64,000 nt of DNA, taken from the sequence record OP557969.1, one strand, 5' to 3'. The position numbers and the translations under genes were made by a program. Of the stretch, positions 29,628 through 53,612 are shown piece after piece. The DNA is from Escherichia phage ph0011. How positions within the stretch are numbered: position 1 is the stretch's first letter; the number at the start of each line of letters is the position of its first letter. The notes under the pieces are model-generated. The model searched no databases and was not told the DNA's origin. It was given only the letters and a program-made list of their open reading frames with translations.

Positions 29628-31030
<1,403 letters not shown>

Positions 31031-45080: not shown

Positions 45081-45558
45081 TGTGAAATGTAATCTTAATG
45101 CAGTTGTTTATGCAATCAACTGTGGTGCAGATATCCAGTACTTACAATTACAGGAAATCGATGAACCTGAAAGGTTAAAATTCAATGATAACTGTAAAAA
45201 ATTTGGTTTAGAGCAACGTATGCTGGATTATACCATTGAACATGATAAAAATCATGAACTTTGGCGTTATGATCCAGTATATGATAATATAAATCTACGT
45301 GACTTTTTTTTACAAAAGTGTACATCTGATGAAGCACGAACACGTGTTGAGTATGAGCTTGAATTATATGAATATTATAATATGACAAAACTATTAAGAT
45401 GTATGATCTGGCTCGTTGATTACATGGAAGAACATGAAATCTTTTGGGGTCTGGGGCGTGGAAGCTCTGTTGCATCATATTGCTTATACTTGATTGGACT
45501 ACATATGGTAGATTCATTGAAGTATGACCTTGATGTGAACGAATTTTTGAAATGGTAG
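45040..45558 (+). CDS. Hypothetical protein (172 aa)
   Basis: ORF; start uncertain. Confidence 0.45.
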   Translation: MKVQGNRFISPNGDVKCNLNAVVYAINCGADIQYLQLQEIDEPERLKFNDNCKKFGLEQRMLDYTIEHDKNHELWRYDPVYDNINLRDFFLQKCTSDEARTRVEYELELYEYYNMTKLLRCMIWLVDYMEEHEIFWGLGRGSSVASYCLYLIGLHMVDSLKYDLDVNEFLKW

Positions 45559-45566
45559 ATAAACAT

Positions 45567-45600
45567 GTGATATAATGTGTATTGTAGTTATTATATCACA
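45567..45600 (+). promoter_or_regulatory. Extended -10 (TGaTATAAT) embedded in a perfect 11-bp inverted repeat
   Basis: tgtgatataat ... attatatcaca separated by 12 nt, just upstream of the ORF at 45623. Confidence 0.45.
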
Positions 45601-45622
45601 CATAAAATAAAAGGATTTTGAT

Positions 45623-45967
45623 ATGTCTAAACATACAACTTATCGTGGTACAACAATTGACATGGATATGCTCAAGTACCAAAATCAACACCAGGTAGCA
45701 TTGGGTAATGCAAATCTAAATGCACGTGGTGATAAAATTGGCTCAGGTGGAACAATTATCAAAACTCGTGAAGAGTTACTTCAAGAAAAAGAACGTGAAA
45801 TGCAAATTCCTGATTTTATTCCTGAACATCAACTTCATAGTACTGAACATAGTACTGAAGAAGTATGGGATGATGAAAGCTTTGAAGTTATGCCCGAAGT
45901 AAAAGAAGCTGAGGTTTCTGAAGAAAAGAAAGCCCCACGTCGAGCAAGAACTAAAGAACAGGAGTGA
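45623..45967 (+). CDS. Hypothetical protein (114 aa)
   Basis: ORF with AAGGA RBS. Confidence 0.5.
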   Translation: MSKHTTYRGTTIDMDMLKYQNQHQVALGNANLNARGDKIGSGGTIIKTREELLQEKEREMQIPDFIPEHQLHSTEHSTEEVWDDESFEVMPEVKEAEVSEEKKAPRRARTKEQE

Positions 45968-49575: not shown

Positions 49576-50390
49576 GAATTTTAAATATGCTTAAATCTCT
49601 TCACGAAACGACGAAATTGGTTCAGGATGAAAAATATCGTCGAAGTATTACAAAAGATTTAGCATGTCGAATGTATATGCGTAGATTCGAAATTTCTCGA
49701 ATTGGTAAAAAATGGGATAATATAAATCGTGAAGACATTGACCCAGATGCTATTTTTAAAGCATACATGGCAAGAAAAGTTTTCATAAATGAAAAAACTT
49801 TTTATATAGATAGTGATAGAGTTCTAGAAGATAAATTCACTAAAGGTTTATGGAATATATGGTGTATTGAAATATTTGGAGAAGTTCTCCCTGAACCACC
49901 TGTTCCTAAAACGTATAAAGAATTAAAAAATATTTTTGATAATGAACACATACATTCAAACTTCTCATTATATGACACTGTATCAGAAGCTGTATTTTAT
50001 GGTGAGTTGCATGGTCATAACAAATATTTTGATAGTATGGTTAGTTTTGATTTGTTTTGCCACTTACCAGGTGTGTCTAGCTGGACCAGTGATCAACACC
50101 GAGCTAGTAAGGTTGATAAACGTAAATTCTCTGCTCAAAGATTTATGCAAGTTGCAATGAGTATGTATAAACTTGATTATCTTGGTTGTCCAGAACCATA
50201 TACTCATTTCTGGAAAGAAAAAGCACAAAAATGCTTAAACTACTGTATAGTTCGTTTGATGGACACATACATTCTTAAGTTTAGGAATGCAACAGTATAT
50301 GACATGCCAGAACCACCAGAGAATGAAAAGTATCCACCAGTCAAAACATTTGTATGGTACAGGGATAAAAGTAACAAAAGGATGCACTAA
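49572..50390 (+). CDS. Hypothetical protein (272 aa)
   Basis: ORF with ATGA overlap. Confidence 0.5.
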   Translation: MRILNMLKSLHETTKLVQDEKYRRSITKDLACRMYMRRFEISRIGKKWDNINREDIDPDAIFKAYMARKVFINEKTFYIDSDRVLEDKFTKGLWNIWCIEIFGEVLPEPPVPKTYKELKNIFDNEHIHSNFSLYDTVSEAVFYGELHGHNKYFDSMVSFDLFCHLPGVSSWTSDQHRASKVDKRKFSAQRFMQVAMSMYKLDYLGCPEPYTHFWKEKAQKCLNYCIVRLMDTYILKFRNATVYDMPEPPENEKYPPVKTFVWYRDKSNKRMH

Positions 50391-50408
50391 TGTGTATCCT
50401 TTTTTCGT
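50379..50408 (+). terminator. Terminator hairpin overlapping the stop codon
   Basis: aggatgcac-taat-gtgtatcct (one G-U pair) followed by tttttt. Confidence 0.5.
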
Positions 50409-50486
50409 TTCATGTATTGACATATGGTGTACCAGTATGTATAATACCCACGTTATTTAAATTTTAATTGATTACGAGGTTTTATA

Positions 50487-51614
50487 ATGAAAGGTAAATA
50501 TTTTTTTGTTGAAAATGGGAAAGAAGTCGAAATTCAAGAATTCAACTATAATTATGTACTGAACTCTTTATTAAAACAATATGACCGTTCATCAAACAAA
50601 AAATACATTTACAATGTGATTGTACGCCGTACTTATGATTCGTTAGGTAATCCATCATTCGATGTAAAATCATTGTCATTGGATGAAATCTATTTTGATA
50701 ATAGACGCTTAAATGTATTTGATTTAATGAAAGATAAAATTCATTTTAGTAATGTTAGAATTGACCCTAACATGCCAGTACCACCATTGGAGCGTGAGTA
50801 TCGTGAATGGAAAGAAGGTCGTGCAAAACCGCGTCTGGATTTGGTAAAAACATCACCCGACGTTCCTGCACCTATTGTTCTTAAGAAAAAACCAATCAGC
50901 CCAGACGATACCCGAATTAAGGATATTGAATGTGTTGTTGAATTCCCAGATACTATTGAAAAGAACCCAGTCAAAGTGTTAGATTGGTTTATCAACTTAC
51001 CAGTTTGTGCACAAGAAATTGGAACTAAGATTCAACAAGTTTCAGAACGACAACTGGAACTCAGTTCTGCATTACAACAGCATAGTGATTATATCAGAAT
51101 GCTCATGGATAACTTAACAGTAGCTTTGGAAACCTTGTTCCCACTGAAACCGACATTCACCCAGAAATTATTTGGTAAAACTGATATCAAAGTACAACCG
51201 TCTGATTTACCAAAAGTGATGAAAAAACTCAATGAAGCTGTAAAGTATGATACCAACAAGTTTAGTGGTTTAAATTCTATGTTTTCTGAAATCAGAAAAG
51301 AAGTTAACGAAATCAAAAATGAACTTGAATATGGTAAGTTGGGCTGTGAATACGCACTATGCAGTGTGGATGATGCATTTGAATATGAATTAACATTAGA
51401 ACGTATTATGAAAATGAGCATTACCACGTCTATGACAGAAACAAGTATTATTGCTACAAACAAACAATATCAAGTTGATATGAATCGTATGATTGACATT
51501 CAAACTATCACTATTCCTTTGATTATCAATCGTTTACAGTCACAGGTAGGTAAGGCAGTAGATACAAGTACTGTTGAGATTATTCGCAACCTTGCATATG
51601 GTAACAAAGAATAA
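50487..51614 (+). CDS. Hypothetical protein (375 aa)
   Basis: ORF. Confidence 0.55.
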   Translation: MKGKYFFVENGKEVEIQEFNYNYVLNSLLKQYDRSSNKKYIYNVIVRRTYDSLGNPSFDVKSLSLDEIYFDNRRLNVFDLMKDKIHFSNVRIDPNMPVPPLEREYREWKEGRAKPRLDLVKTSPDVPAPIVLKKKPISPDDTRIKDIECVVEFPDTIEKNPVKVLDWFINLPVCAQEIGTKIQQVSERQLELSSALQQHSDYIRMLMDNLTVALETLFPLKPTFTQKLFGKTDIKVQPSDLPKVMKKLNEAVKYDTNKFSGLNSMFSEIRKEVNEIKNELEYGKLGCEYALCSVDDAFEYELTLERIMKMSITTSMTETSIIATNKQYQVDMNRMIDIQTITIPLIINRLQSQVGKAVDTSTVEIIRNLAYGNKE

Positions 51615-51623
51615 AAAAAACAC

Positions 51624-51652
51624 TTGACTTGGATATGTGCTGAACGTATAAT
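51624..51652 (+). promoter_or_regulatory. Near-consensus sigma70 promoter TTGACT-N17-TATAAT
   Basis: ttgact 51624-51629; tataat 51647-51652; overlapping dyad gtgctg ... cagcac. Confidence 0.6.
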
Positions 51653-51700
51653 GTTTATCACTGAGCAGCACATCATATTAACTTAAACGAGGAACTCTCA

Positions 51701-52837
51701 ATGGCAGAGAAAGAAATCAATCCAAAAAAATCGTCAACAGTCACTAAAAACACCAAACGTTCTTCCAAAACTGCGACGAAGGGTCACACAATTGATGCAA
51801 GTGATATTTTCAACCAAACAACAAAGTCACTCCCAGTTCTAAAAGATGTAAAGGGTAATACCATGTCACTAACAGTTCAAAACATCAACACTGTTGGTAC
51901 AACTGCTGGTGCGGCGGTTGGTCGTTTGGCTGATGAAATTATGTCTAAGGTTAACGTAACCGATGACAATACCGAGTTTGGTAAATCAATCACTACAATT
52001 CTCACATTGACCCGTGCGGTTGATATTGATAGTCTTCAGGAAGATAAATCAATTGTTGGTCGCATTAAGAAATTCTTTGTTAATGCCCAACAGAAAGTTG
52101 GCGATCAATACAAAAATAGTAAAGAACAAATTGATGAAATTATGAAAACTCTACAAACTGGCATCAATCGCCAACATGGAGAGTGTGAGTGGCTTGATAA
52201 AGCATATAATGAAAACAAAGAATATTTGTTCGAATTACGTGATACATTAGTTGGTTTAGAAGAAGTAACTAAAGCACAAGATGCAGTACTGGCAGAAATG
52301 CAAGCAAACAAAGATGTGGACTCTTTTGCTATTCAAGAACAAAAGATGATTTGTGAAGCACTTTCTAAGCAAGAAGACAAGATTCGCCGACTTATCATGA
52401 TGTGTGAACTGAGTGGTCCACGATTGATGAGTATGAAAAAAGTAAACTTAAACACTGTTTCTAAGTTTGAAGATTTGAAATCAGTAGTAATTCCCGCATG
52501 GAAATCGCAATTGGCTGAACAGCTAATCTCTGAGCGTCAACGTAAGGATAATGAATTGGGAAATCTAATTGACAATGAAACAAATCGTTTATTAGAGACT
52601 AACTCTAAGATGGTTGCAGCTAATATGCTGGATGCTGCAAAGGCAAACAATCGTGGTATTGTGGATATTAAAACCTTGCGTAATGTACATAAAACAATGA
52701 TTGACAGCATTGAAGCTGTTATTGAAGAAGAGAAAAAAGGTAAAATGGAACGTGAACGTGCGAAACAAGAAATCGCACAACTTTCACACGAACTCGAAGA
52801 CACACTTCGTGAAATTGCAGAAAAAGCTAACAAGTAA
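51701..52837 (+). CDS. Hypothetical coiled-coil protein (378 aa)
   Basis: ORF with GAGGAA RBS; helical and charged throughout. Confidence 0.55.
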   Translation: MAEKEINPKKSSTVTKNTKRSSKTATKGHTIDASDIFNQTTKSLPVLKDVKGNTMSLTVQNINTVGTTAGAAVGRLADEIMSKVNVTDDNTEFGKSITTILTLTRAVDIDSLQEDKSIVGRIKKFFVNAQQKVGDQYKNSKEQIDEIMKTLQTGINRQHGECEWLDKAYNENKEYLFELRDTLVGLEEVTKAQDAVLAEMQANKDVDSFAIQEQKMICEALSKQEDKIRRLIMMCELSGPRLMSMKKVNLNTVSKFEDLKSVVIPAWKSQLAEQLISERQRKDNELGNLIDNETNRLLETNSKMVAANMLDAAKANNRGIVDIKTLRNVHKTMIDSIEAVIEEEKKGKMERERAKQEIAQLSHELEDTLREIAEKANK

Positions 52838-52850
52838 TAGTTGACACATG

Positions 52851-52898
52851 GGTGCGTTTTTCAATATAATATTATTATTGAAAACGCACTCTTTTTAA
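52851..52898 (+). terminator. Long hairpin / terminator
   Basis: gtgcgtttttcaat ... attgaaaacgcac with AT-rich loop, followed by tcttttt. Confidence 0.5.
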
Positions 52899-52922
52899 TA
52901 TACAGATAAGGAACAAATATAT

Positions 52923-53612
52923 ATGAAGCGTAGGCATATTAGTGTTGATATTGAGTCTCTTGGTACTCCTGAAAATTCAGGATATGATATTATTATTCCA
53001 AATTACGCAGCAGTTGTTGTTCCAAATAAACCTGAAAATGATATCAGGAATTTTATATATGTTAAGTTGCCATACCAAGCACAAGTTAACGCTGGACTGA
53101 AATCAGATTCAGGTGCAATGGATTTCTGGATGAATACGTGTCAGAAAGAATATCCTAATGCATATGCAGAAGTTGCCAGTACTATGACTCTTCGTGCACC
53201 AGAATTGTACGGACCTAATGGTAAATCCAAACAAATCTTTACATCTAATAGTATTGTCGATTTCTGGAAAGATATCCGTTATGATATCTATGGTAAAGAG
53301 GTTGAACATTCAATTTGGGGAAATGGTTGTAACTTCGACTGTAGTATTTTACAAGCTAATCACTTAAAACTATTGAATGTTGGTGATTTATGGAAATATG
53401 ATGCACCAGAAAATGCACGAACATTAAAACGTTTATTGAATGAAGATGCTCGTACCGAAATGGATGAGATTGTGTCAGTGCAGTTAGCTAAATTCGTGAA
53501 GTATGCAGAACAATGTGGTATTAATGGTTTGGAATTACATCACCCTCTGTATGATGCAGCACGTGAAGCTATCCAAATCTCCTACTGTCTCAATAAACTT
53601 AAACTGGACTAA
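52923..53612 (+). CDS. dexA: DEDDh 3'-5' exonuclease (T4 DexA-like)
   Basis: Exo I ISVDIESLG; C-terminal HHPLYDA (H-x4-D). Confidence 0.5.
   Translation: MKRRHISVDIESLGTPENSGYDIIIPNYAAVVVPNKPENDIRNFIYVKLPYQAQVNAGLKSDSGAMDFWMNTCQKEYPNAYAEVASTMTLRAPELYGPNGKSKQIFTSNSIVDFWKDIRYDIYGKEVEHSIWGNGCNFDCSILQANHLKLLNVGDLWKYDAPENARTLKRLLNEDARTEMDEIVSVQLAKFVKYAEQCGINGLELHHPLYDAAREAIQISYCLNKLKLD

What the first reader, a model, noticed from the sequence alone, without database searches (positions are those of the whole stretch)
51624..51660. Near-consensus sigma70 promoter overlapped by a dyad
TTGACT-N17-TATAAT is among the strongest host-type promoters in the window; the dyad gtgctg ... cagcac spans the -10 and start site and could be an operator or a 5' RNA hairpin.
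Basis: seen in the sequence. Interest (0 to 1): 0.4.

Follow-up and report, generated by a model that had tools for sequence, protein, structure and literature searches.

The report
Phage promoter straddled by conserved hairpin
A strong host-type promoter in front of a jumbo phage's telA-like gene sits between the two arms of a small stem-loop that relatives in several phage genera keep by compensating mutations, so the dyad is a real conserved element, probably an RNA hairpin in read-through transcripts, and its job is still unknown.

Summary
TTGACT (51624-29), a 17-nt spacer and TATAAT (51647-52) lie 49 nt upstream of a TelA-like gene in a 121Q/RaK2-like jumbo phage. The dyad is really ATGTGCTG (51635-42) / CAGCACAT (51666-73), which runs past the finding's end coordinate.

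In this one sequence the dyad is only mildly unusual (p about 0.01). Across 19 distinct orthologous intergenic regions from four named genera (Asteriusvirus, Alcyoneusvirus, Mimasvirus, Eneladusvirus), an unclassified phage and metagenomes, three things are always kept:
- the -35 and -10 hexamers;
- a 6-11 bp helix with one arm in the spacer and the other 9-21 nt downstream of the -10;
- pairing of the arms despite different sequences (10 of 11 pairs changed on both sides; 0 of 500 shuffles reach the observed score).

The 5' arm lies at about -24 to -17. It therefore cannot be a 5' hairpin of this promoter's own RNA and can only form in read-through transcripts from the upstream gene.

It is not a canonical terminator (no U tract) and does not hide the ribosome binding site. 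It fits an operator poorly: arm spacing varies 26-33 bp and the dyad occurs once in 64 kb.

Best reading: a real sigma70 early promoter overlaid by a conserved intercistronic RNA stem-loop of unproven function. Interest is modest.

The parts
50417..50445 (+). Upstream 12/12 sigma70-like promoter (TTGACA-N17-TATAAT) of ORF 50487-51614. It is the likely source of read-through RNA that would carry both arms of the hairpin.
   Evidence: No terminator-like site is found on the + strand between 50404 and the hairpin.
50487..51614 (+). Upstream ORF of 375 aa, a conserved phage protein of unknown function. Its stop codon lies 20 nt before the 5' arm.
   Evidence: No Pfam match. Matches phrog_13312, function unknown.
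51612..51620 (+). Stop codon TAA followed by an A tract (TAAAAAAAA) just upstream of the -35. It looks like an UP element.
   Evidence: An A-rich stretch sits at the same place in most homologues. The phage CBB paper describes RpoD-like promoters preceded by an UP-like element (PMC5259590).
51624..51629 (+). -35 hexamer TTGACT.
   Evidence: TTGAC is invariant in 19 of 19 orthologous variants.
51635..51642 (+). 5' arm of the helix, ATGTGCTG, inside the promoter spacer at about -24 to -17.
   Evidence: Covariation.
51647..51652 (+). -10 hexamer TATAAT. It lies in the loop of the hairpin.
   Evidence: TAnnnT is kept in all homologues.
51653..51665 (+). Conserved loop and initial transcribed sequence GTTTATCACTGAG. 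The predicted start site is at about 51659 (+/- 2), inferred from the usual 7-nt distance after the -10.
   Evidence: Identical in the Asteriusvirus homologues except for one variable position. Related to (G/C)TTT(T)ACATCAAGAC in the other genera. The TSS is inferred, not measured.
51666..51673 (+). 3' arm of the helix, CAGCACAT, at about +8 to +15.
51677..51687 (+). AU-rich leader motif ATTAACTTAAA between the hairpin and the Shine-Dalgarno sequence.
   Evidence: Conserved as ATTAACTTA(A/G)A across genera. Its function is inferred only.
51689..51693 (+). Shine-Dalgarno sequence GAGGA, 7 nt before the ATG.
   Evidence: Conserved.
51701..52837 (+). TelA-like (toxic anion resistance family) gene served by the promoter.
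   Evidence: Pfam PF05816, E = 2.4e-38. phrog_5890.

Best explanation
The site is a genuine host-sigma70 (early-type) promoter for the phage's TelA-like gene. The DNA across it also encodes a conserved stem-loop. One arm uses the sequence-neutral promoter spacer (-24 to -17). The other uses the initial transcribed region (+8 to +15). The -10 hexamer and the start site therefore sit in the loop.

RNA started at this promoter lacks the 5' arm. The stem-loop can only form in transcripts that read through from the upstream gene, which has its own consensus promoter at 50417 and no terminator before this site.

I infer that it acts on that bicistronic RNA as an intercistronic structure: a 3'-end or processing barrier that protects the upstream message, or a weak pause or attenuator. 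It does not appear to regulate initiation.

Shown: the promoter-like sequence and its conservation; the helix and its covariation; the geometry relative to the promoter.

Inferred: promoter activity, the start site, that the helix acts as + strand RNA, and what it does.
For: Context:
- The window is a 121Q/PBECO4-like jumbo phage, about 88% nucleotide identity.
- The site is intergenic on the gene strand, upstream of a TelA-like ORF.
- Near-consensus sigma70 sites are five-fold enriched on the + strand only.

Conservation:
- 19 distinct orthologous regions keep TTGAC(N)-N16-18-TAnnnT. They come from Asteriusvirus, Alcyoneusvirus (RaK2), Mimasvirus (GAP32, CBB), Eneladusvirus (Yen9-03, SNUABM_19), the unclassified phage fENko-Kae01, and IMG/VR and metagenome contigs.
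- All of them have a 6-11 bp helix bracketing the -10.
- The arm sequences differ: GTGCTG/CAGCAC, GTGTTG/CAACAC, GAGTATCGG/CCGATACTC, AGATTGCTG/CAGCAATCT, AAGTACTGT/ACAGTACTT.

Covariation:
- On an arm-anchored alignment, 84% of cells pair against 68% in shuffles.
- 10 of 11 pairs changed on both sides. The covariation score is 0.517 against 0.198, and 0 of 500 shuffles reach it. Slid registers pair only 21-54%.
- An alignment-free swap test of own versus foreign arms gives a summed score of 387 against 280 +/- 15, with 0 of 20,000 permutations reaching it.

Folding:
- All 17 homologues tested fold into the same hairpin, -9.5 to -17.3 kcal/mol, z from -1.2 to -5.4.
- It is part of the minimum-energy fold of the modelled read-through RNA in every homologue.

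Strand:
- In the main helix, non-Watson-Crick cells are G.T on the + strand 10 times and A.C once. In CBB and JNE01 the helix is 10 bp only if G.U pairs are allowed.

Precedent in the same window:
- The next intergenic region (52841-52896) is built the same way, but there the hairpin is terminator-shaped with a T run (-18.6 kcal/mol, z = -7.7). It is a plain terminator in the other genera.

Annotation:
- The Yen9-03 GenBank record annotates -35 and -10 signals at the orthologous spot.
Against: - There are no transcript data. Promoter activity, the start site and the existence of read-through RNA are all inferred.
- This window's own hairpin is the weakest of the family (z = -1.2; 23 of 200 shuffles fold as well).
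- A whole-segment energy comparison of the two strands does not favour the + strand. The - strand is as stable or more stable in 11 of 17 (p = 0.43). That test is confounded by the G+U-rich complement of the loop, but the strand and the RNA-versus-DNA assignment remain only a leaning.
- The arm-anchored alignment was made by me to fit the helix, so its counts lean towards the structure.
- Nothing shows what the stem-loop does. The tail has only 2-4 T in 8 nt, against 5-7 at nearby terminators, so it is not a standard terminator.
- The loop sequence ACATCAAGAC is conserved beyond what either a promoter or a simple barrier hairpin requires. It occurs only once per genome in two Eneladusvirus genomes. 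This is unexplained.
Confidence: 0.5

Rival explanations
1. The dyad is an operator. A dimeric phage or host DNA-binding protein binds the two half-sites flanking the -10 and represses the promoter, for example to shut off early transcription. The half-sites co-vary because each phage's repressor has its own specificity.
For: The inverted repeat is centred near -5 and overlaps the -10 and the start site, which is the classic place for a repressor. Symmetric co-variation of half-sites would mimic base-pair covariation. The strand-energy test does not exclude a DNA-level element. The sequence between the arms is strongly conserved.
Against: - The core centre-to-centre distance ranges from 26 to 33 bp, and arm length from 6 to 11 bp, among homologues. 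A rigid dimer could not follow that.
- At least five different arm sequences would each need a co-evolved protein.
- In CBB and JNE01 the repeat is a poor DNA palindrome but a full helix with G.U pairs.
- The dyad occurs once in 64 kb, and the two other promoters in the window with bracketing dyads carry unrelated arm sequences.
Confidence: 0.12
2. The stem-loop is a weak or factor-dependent transcription terminator or pause site for RNA polymerase arriving from the upstream gene. It would limit read-through into, and interference with, the telA promoter.
For: Each of the three consecutive intergenic regions holds a hairpin plus a promoter: 50376-50445, 51624-51673 and 52841-52896. The other two hairpins are terminator-shaped. 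The design with arms in the spacer and the transcribed start is identical at 52841. The G17 record annotates that neighbour as a terminator.
Against: There is no U tract in any of the 16 homologues whose tail was scored (2-4 T in the 8 nt after the stem). The loop is 15-30 nt and the stem is modest at 6-11 bp. The terminator scan does not report it.
Confidence: 0.15
3. This is T4 gene e-type or IS10-type control. The hairpin of read-through RNA blocks translation of telA, while RNA started at the internal promoter lacks the 5' arm and is translated.
For: The topology is the same as for T4 genes e, soc, 49 and I-TevI, where a promoter lies inside the region encoding the 5' strand of an inhibitory structure (PMC3014915). 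These phages are distant T4 relatives.
Against: The 3' arm ends 25-32 nt upstream of the ATG and never includes the Shine-Dalgarno sequence or the AUG. The predicted unpaired probability of the SD-AUG stretch is the same in long and short RNAs in all 18 homologues tested (0.45-0.75 in both).
Confidence: 0.05
4. The hairpin, with its conserved roughly 20-nt loop, is a specific protein-binding RNA element, for example the target of a phage translational or stability regulator. It would mark read-through (later) transcripts as distinct from promoter-initiated (early) ones.
For: Covarying stem plus conserved loop is the usual signature of a recognised RNA hairpin. The loop motif (G/C)TTT(T)ACATCAAGAC is kept across genera whose TelA proteins are only 44-53% identical. 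It is not shared by other promoters of the window. It is found once per genome in two Eneladusvirus genomes. T4 has precedents of protein-bound leader hairpins, such as the gp43 operator (PMC3014915).
Against: Part of the loop conservation is explained by the -10 hexamer and the start-site context. No candidate binding protein is known. There is no Rfam family at the site. In Asteriusvirus the loop motif is altered (GTTTATCACTGAG).
Confidence: 0.12
5. The structure acts in DNA, as a cruciform or a single-strand DNA hairpin that modulates promoter melting, or the dyad is a chance feature of no function.
For: The energy test does not separate the strands. In this window alone the dyad is only p about 0.01.
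Against: Chance is excluded by the covariation across 19 variants. Loops of 15-30 nt make cruciform extrusion very unfavourable; this rests on established knowledge and is an inference. G.T pairs on the + strand would be A.C mismatches in the other arm of a cruciform.
Confidence: 0.05

Closest known systems
Strong sigma70 early promoters of virulent coliphages (T4 early, T5, T7 A1). RpoD-like promoters with an UP-like element are predicted in the related jumbo phage CBB (PMC5259590).
   Same: Near-consensus -35 and -10 hexamers with a 17-nt spacer. An A tract lies upstream. The site is on the gene strand directly upstream of a gene and is one of many such sites.
   Different: Activity has not been measured. 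This particular promoter is not in the held CBB promoter tables. It carries an overlaid conserved helix, which most other promoter-like sites in the window lack.
T4 genes e, soc, 49 and I-TevI (promoter inside an inhibitory hairpin; PMC3014915). IS10 fold-back inhibition is a similar case, recalled from memory.
   Same: A promoter lies between or within the arms, so its own transcripts lack the 5' arm and only read-through RNA can fold (geometry).
   Different: In those systems the 3' arm sequesters the ribosome binding site. Here it ends 25-32 nt upstream of the ATG, and predicted SD accessibility is unchanged. Here the internal promoter is a host sigma70 type, whereas in T4 it is a late promoter.
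The terminator-promoter fusion in the next intergenic region of the same phage (window 52841-52896).
   Same: The design is identical: arms in the spacer and in the initial transcribed region, with the -10 at the apex. The arms are conserved by covariation within Asteriusvirus.
   Different: That hairpin is long (12-15 bp), has a short effective loop and is followed by TTTTT. The hairpin in the finding has 8 bp, a 23-nt loop and no U tract.
Intercistronic or 3'-end stabiliser stem-loops of bacterial and phage mRNAs, which block 3'-to-5' exonucleases. Examples such as REP elements and trimmed Rho-dependent 3' ends are from general knowledge.
   Same: A moderately stable hairpin without a U tract sits between two cistrons of a predicted polycistronic RNA.
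   Different: No 3' ends have been mapped here. The large conserved loop that holds a promoter element is not typical of such stabilisers.
Repressor operators overlapping the -10 and +1 (LexA-type or lambdoid-type dyads).
   Same: An inverted repeat centred on the -10 and start site.
   Different: Half-site spacing and length vary between homologues. The site occurs once. G.T pairs replace Watson-Crick symmetry.

Membership tests
Sigma70 (housekeeping) promoter | -35 and -10 hexamers close to TTGACA and TATAAT, with a 16-18 nt spacer | tested here: met
   TTGACT-N17-TATAAT, 11 of 12 positions.
Sigma70 (housekeeping) promoter | Placed upstream of a gene on the same strand, in non-coding DNA | tested here: met
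   It lies in an 86-nt gap between ORFs. The -10 ends 48 nt before the telA ATG.
Sigma70 (housekeeping) promoter | Hexamers conserved at orthologous sites while the spacer diverges | tested here: met
   TTGAC and TAnnnT are kept in 19 of 19 variants. The first 5-8 spacer bases vary.
Sigma70 (housekeeping) promoter | Transcription actually starts there with sigma70 holoenzyme | not testable with these tools
   No transcript data were found for this phage group.
Intrinsic (Rho-independent) terminator | G+C-rich stem with a short loop (3-8 nt) | tested here: not met
   The stem is 8 bp with 4 G-C pairs and the loop is 23 nt. The terminator scan does not report it.
Intrinsic (Rho-independent) terminator | U tract immediately after the stem | tested here: not met
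   3 T in the 8 nt after the stem here, and 2-4 in the 16 homologues scored, against 5-7 at nearby terminators.
T4 gene e-type or IS10-type inhibitory hairpin with internal promoter | The promoter lies so that its own RNA lacks the 5' arm | tested here: met
   The 5' arm lies at -24 to -17 and the 3' arm at +8 to +15, by geometry.
T4 gene e-type or IS10-type inhibitory hairpin with internal promoter | The 3' arm sequesters the Shine-Dalgarno sequence and/or the start codon | tested here: not met
   The 3' arm ends 25-32 nt before the ATG. SD-AUG accessibility is equal in long and short RNA models.
Dimeric-repressor operator | Inverted repeat overlapping core promoter elements | tested here: met
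Dimeric-repressor operator | Fixed half-site spacing among homologues, and reuse of the site at other regulated promoters | tested here: not met
   The spacing is 26-33 bp. There is one copy in 64 kb. Only this window could be searched, not a whole genome.
Conserved structured RNA element (covariation-supported helix) | Base pairs maintained by compensatory changes above controls | tested here: met
   10 of 11 pairs changed on both sides, with 0 of 500 shuffles reaching the score. Swap test: 0 of 20,000. Caveat: the alignment was anchored by hand.
Conserved structured RNA element (covariation-supported helix) | Strand-specific signal (G.U tolerated on the transcribed-sense strand only) | tested here: inconclusive
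   Within the helix, G.T outnumbers A.C by 10 to 1 in favour of the + strand. Whole-segment energies show no strand preference.
Any described Rfam family | Match to a curated covariance model | tested here: not met
   No hit overlaps 51600-51700. Only sub-threshold chance hits occur elsewhere.
RNase III processing site (T7 early type) | About two turns (roughly 20 bp) of double-stranded RNA, often with an internal loop | tested here: not met
   The outer helix is 6-11 bp, plus 3-5 weak inner pairs. The length criterion is from general knowledge.

The most novel reading that the evidence does not exclude
The stem-loop with its conserved loop (-10 hexamer plus ACATCAAGAC-type sequence) is a dedicated regulatory RNA hairpin conserved across at least four genera of RaK2-like jumbo phages. 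It exists only in read-through transcripts and is read by a phage or host protein or RNase. This would give early, promoter-initiated telA RNA and later, read-through telA RNA different fates. It would be a variant of the T4 'promoter inside a hairpin' logic that works without hiding the ribosome binding site.
Probability: 0.15. Interest if true: 0.6.

Novelty: new variant of a known kind. Interest (0 to 1): 0.35.

Why it matters
The promoter itself is ordinary. It adds one well-supported early promoter to a poorly studied group of 350-kb phages for which I found no transcript mapping.

The useful result is that the dyad is not decoration. It is a helix kept by compensatory change in every RaK2/121Q-like phage examined. 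It is built from the only two stretches of a promoter that are free to vary, the spacer and the initial transcribed region.

This shows how such compact phages overlay an RNA structure on a promoter. Together with the terminator-promoter fusion 1.2 kb downstream, it gives a concrete and cheap experimental handle for asking how read-through and promoter-initiated transcripts of the same gene are told apart in jumbo phages: arm mutants, compensatory mutants, and 5'/3' end mapping.

It also warns annotators that hairpins called as terminators in these genomes can contain active promoters.

Tried and rejected
- **Rfam.** A permissive scan of 50300-53000 found nothing at the site.
- **T4-type RBS sequestration.** SD-AUG accessibility was modelled in long versus short RNAs for 18 homologues and showed no difference.
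- **Canonical terminator.** Rejected on loop size and lack of a U tract.
- **General rule that promoters in this phage are bracketed by hairpins.** Rejected. Of 48 promoter-like sites on the + strand, only 51624, 52841, 45547 and marginally 34659 stand out. The 45547 hairpin is conserved only within Asteriusvirus.
- **Strand of origin from minimum free energies.** Inconclusive and confounded by composition.
- **Repeated operator.** The dyad pattern occurs once in the window.
- **Loop motif as a shared start-site motif of many promoters.** An IMG/VR pattern scan found it once per Eneladusvirus genome; the other roughly 80 hits are consistent with chance for a 16-base pattern.
- **Small leader ORF starting at TATA-ATG.** Considered from the sequences. 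Rejected because homologues with TATAATC lack the ATG and the motif carries indels.
- **MAFFT alignment of full intergenic regions.** It misaligned the arms, so I used an arm-anchored construct and an alignment-free swap test.
- **Literature.** Searches for transcriptomics or promoter mapping in Asteriusvirus or RaK2-like phages found only in-silico predictions. The CBB promoter tables held as text do not list a promoter for CBB_340. Two searches were unproductive or rejected.
- **Xanthomonas phage XaC1.** Its telA abuts the preceding gene and has no such promoter or hairpin.

Full report
**What is in the sequence.**
The window reads TTGACT at 51624-51629, a 17-nt spacer and TATAAT at 51647-51652. 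It is ATGTGCTG at 51635-51642 and CAGCACAT at 51666-51673: 8 bp, perfectly complementary, with 23 nt between the arms. The 3' arm therefore lies outside the coordinates given in the finding.

The site is in an 86-nt gap. Upstream is a 375-aa ORF (50487-51614) with no Pfam domain, matching phrog_13312 of unknown function. Downstream is a 378-aa ORF (51701-52837) that matches Pfam TelA at E = 2.4e-38.

The order of features is:
- stop codon plus an A tract (51612-51620);
- the -35 hexamer;
- the 5' arm inside the spacer;
- the -10 hexamer;
- 13 nt of loop;
- the 3' arm;
- an AU-rich ATTAACTTAAA (51677-51687);
- GAGGA (51689-51693);
- the ATG.

**Is it more than chance?**
Sites matching at least 11 of 12 consensus positions number 15 on the + strand and 1 on the - strand. 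Dinucleotide shuffles give 3.2 +/- 1.8 per strand. Near-consensus sigma70 sites are therefore a real, strand-specific feature of this DNA, and this is one of them. Four others are perfect matches.

The dyad alone is only mildly unusual. About 1.2% of random positions with the same geometry give a helix at least as good. As RNA the 44-nt segment folds at -10.7 kcal/mol with z = -1.2. The exact pattern GTGCTG-N10-35-CAGCAC occurs once in the window.

**Where the window comes from.**
The region is about 88% identical to Escherichia phages 121Q, PBECO4, phAPEC6 and other Asteriusvirus jumbo phages of roughly 350 kb. It is more distantly related to further Asteriusvirus lineages and to the Klebsiella RaK2 group.

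**Comparative evidence.**
I collected the orthologous telA-upstream region from four sources:
- Asteriusvirus records (121Q, G17, JNE01, A4, BF17, CMSTMSU, TH47);
- RaK2, GAP32, fENko-Kae01, Yen9-03, CBB and pEa_SNUABM_19;
- IMG/VR contigs;
- metagenome contigs.

This gave 19 distinct variants besides duplicates. The TelA proteins of the different genera are only 44-53% identical to the window's.

Every variant keeps TTGAC(N), a 16-18 nt spacer and TAnnnT. Every variant also has a 6-11 bp helix. Its 5' arm ends between 3 nt inside and 4 nt before the -10. Its 3' arm starts 9-21 nt after the -10.

The arms are not the same sequence:
- GTGCTG/CAGCAC here;
- GTGTTG/CAACAC in the A4 and BF17 lineages;
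- AGTGCTGTAT/ATACAGCACT in RaK2;
- GAGTATCGG/CCGATACTC in two metagenomic Mimasvirus-like phages;
- AGATTGCTG/CAGCAATCT and AAGTACTGT/ACAGTACTT in others.

By eye these represent at least five independent double changes.

MAFFT misaligned the arms in full-length sequences. I therefore made a gapless arm-anchored construct, removing one bulged base in two sequences. On it:
- 84.3% of cells pair, against 67.7% in shuffles;
- 10 of 11 pairs have changes on both sides;
- the covariation score is 0.517 against 0.198, and 0 of 500 shuffles reach it;
- sliding the 3' partner by 1-3 columns drops pairing to 21-54%.

That alignment was fitted by hand to the helix, so I added an alignment-free test. The best helix between each phage's own spacer and its own downstream region sums to 387. 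Randomly reassigned partners give 280 +/- 15, and 0 of 20,000 permutations reach the observed value.

All 17 homologues tested fold into the same hairpin, at -9.5 to -17.3 kcal/mol with z down to -5.4. This window's copy is the weakest.

The dyad is therefore under selection for complementarity.

**What kind of element is it?**
Geometry settles one point. With the -10 at 51647-51652, the start site should be near 51659. That puts the 5' arm at about -24 to -17 and the 3' arm at +8 to +15.

Both arms would be present in RNA reading through from the upstream gene. That gene has a 12/12 promoter at 50417-50445, and the scan finds no terminator before this site. The hairpin is part of the minimum-energy fold of the modelled read-through RNA in all 18 homologues tested.

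**RNA or DNA?**
In the main helix, non-Watson-Crick cells are G.T on the + strand ten times and A.C once. In CBB and JNE01 the helix reaches 10 bp only with G.U pairs. This leans towards + strand RNA.

A comparison of whole-segment folding energies of the two strands shows no preference: the - strand is at least as stable in 11 of 17, p = 0.43. That test is confounded because the complement of the A/C-rich loop is G/U-rich. I treat the strand assignment as a leaning, not a result.

**Operator?**
The core centre-to-centre distance ranges from 26 to 33 bp, and arm length from 6 to 11 bp. The arm sequences differ in at least five ways. The dyad is unique in 64 kb. The two other promoters in the window with bracketing dyads carry unrelated arms. 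A rigid dimeric repressor fits this poorly.

**Terminator?**
The loop is 15-30 nt. The 8 nt after the stem hold only 2-4 T in the 16 homologues scored, against 5-7 at nearby true terminators. The terminator scan does not call it.

**T4-type translational masking?**
In T4 genes e, soc, 49 and I-TevI, a promoter lies within the region encoding the 5' strand of a hairpin that sequesters the ribosome binding site. Only transcripts from that promoter are translated (PMC3014915).

The topology here is the same. However, the 3' arm ends 25-32 nt before the ATG, and the predicted accessibility of the SD-AUG stretch is the same in long and short RNAs. That mechanism is not supported.

**Known RNA family?**
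There is no Rfam match at the site.

**A helpful neighbour.**
The next intergenic region (52841-52896) is a 12/12 promoter whose -10 sits at the apex of a terminator-shaped hairpin (-18.6 kcal/mol, z = -7.7) followed by TTTTT.

- In A4 its arms are replaced by ATGTGCCCATT/AATGGGCACAT.
- In RaK2, GAP32, Kae01, Yen9-03, CBB and SNUABM_19 the same position holds a plain GC hairpin with a T run and no promoter.
- The G17 record annotates it as a terminator.

This phage lineage therefore does overlay RNA hairpins that act on the upstream transcript onto sigma70 promoters, using the spacer and the initial transcribed region as arms. These are the two stretches that promoter function leaves free to vary.

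By analogy, I read the hairpin in the finding as an intercistronic structure acting on read-through RNA: a 3'-end or processing barrier, or a weak pause or attenuator. This last step is inference only.

**What remains unexplained.**
The loop between the -10 and the 3' arm is conserved well beyond the hexamer. It is GTTTATCACTGAG throughout Asteriusvirus apart from one variable position, and (G/C)TTT(T)ACATCAAGAC in the other genera. Other promoters of the window do not share it. An exact-pattern scan of IMG/VR finds it once per genome in two Eneladusvirus genomes.

A covarying stem with a conserved loop is also what a protein-bound RNA hairpin would look like. I keep that as the most novel reading not excluded.

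**Comparison with what is known.**
- The promoter is an ordinary member of the strong sigma70 early promoters of virulent coliphages. The CBB paper predicts RpoD-like promoters with an UP-like element in a relative (PMC5259590), although not this one in the held tables. The Yen9-03 GenBank record annotates -35 and -10 signals at the orthologous spot.
- The promoter-between-the-arms layout resembles the T4 cases but fails their defining feature, RBS sequestration.
- I found no description of this conserved helix, and no transcript mapping for this phage group.

**Verdict.**
- The promoter interpretation is supported by conservation.
- The dyad is real and selected, most likely as a stem-loop in read-through RNA rather than as an operator or a 5' hairpin.
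- Its function is unproven.
- It is a new variant of a known arrangement and of modest interest.

Noticed in passing
window 52841-52896: A perfect 12/12 sigma70-like promoter (TTGACA 52841-46, N18, TATAAT 52865-70) has its -10 at the apex of a terminator-shaped hairpin. The arms are at about 52850-64 and 52878-91, and the RNA fold is -18.6 kcal/mol with z = -7.7. TTTTT follows at 52892-96. The arms covary in phage A4. Other genera have a plain terminator without a promoter at this spot. The G17 record annotates it only as a terminator.
   Followed up: partly
window 45547-45605: TTGAAA-N18-TATAAT upstream of ORF 45623-45967 carries a 12-bp hairpin (-11.1 kcal/mol, z = -2.5) whose 5' arm contains the -10 hexamer itself. 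It is conserved in BF17 but not in RaK2, CBB, Kae01 or Yen9-03.
   Followed up: partly
window 51677-51687 (and the leader of ORF 50487, about 50462-50476): An AU-rich leader motif ATTAACTTA(A/G)A sits just upstream of the Shine-Dalgarno sequence and is conserved across genera. Similar TTAAT(T/C) leaders precede the upstream gene's homologues. It resembles the T7 gene 10 'epsilon' translational enhancer UUAACUUUA; that resemblance is from memory and was not tested.
   Followed up: no
window 51653-51665; orthologous sites in L008-L013, L015-L026 and L036: The initial transcribed and loop sequence, (G/C)TTT(T)ACATCAAGAC in other genera and GTTTATCACTGAG here, is conserved far beyond the -10. It appears unique to the telA promoter: one exact match per genome in two Eneladusvirus genomes. 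This is unexplained.
   Followed up: partly
whole window: Gene and promoter polarity are strongly biased. There are 72 ORFs of at least 90 aa on the + strand against 12 on the - strand; the 12 are mostly shadows, apart from a possible cluster at 29628-30982. Sites matching at least 11 of 12 sigma70 positions number 15 on the + strand and 1 on the - strand, against 3.2 expected per strand.
   Followed up: partly
window 50376-50445: A canonical terminator hairpin with a T run (50376-50403) is followed 13 nt later by a 12/12 promoter (50417-50445) for ORF 50487. Here the terminator and the promoter sit side by side rather than interleaved. In GAP32, CBB, Yen9-03 and SNUABM_19 the orthologous gene has the terminator but no evident sigma70 promoter.
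   Followed up: no
window 51214-51291: A sub-threshold Rfam hit to the eukaryotic snoRNA SNORD65 (30.7 bits against a gathering score of 41) lies inside the coding region of ORF 50487-51614. It is almost certainly a chance match.
   Followed up: no
L040 (Xanthomonas phage XaC1) 1464-1474: In this distant relative the telA homologue starts 9 nt after the preceding gene and has no promoter or hairpin. The promoter-plus-hairpin module may therefore be limited to the enterobacterial RaK2-like phages.
   Followed up: no
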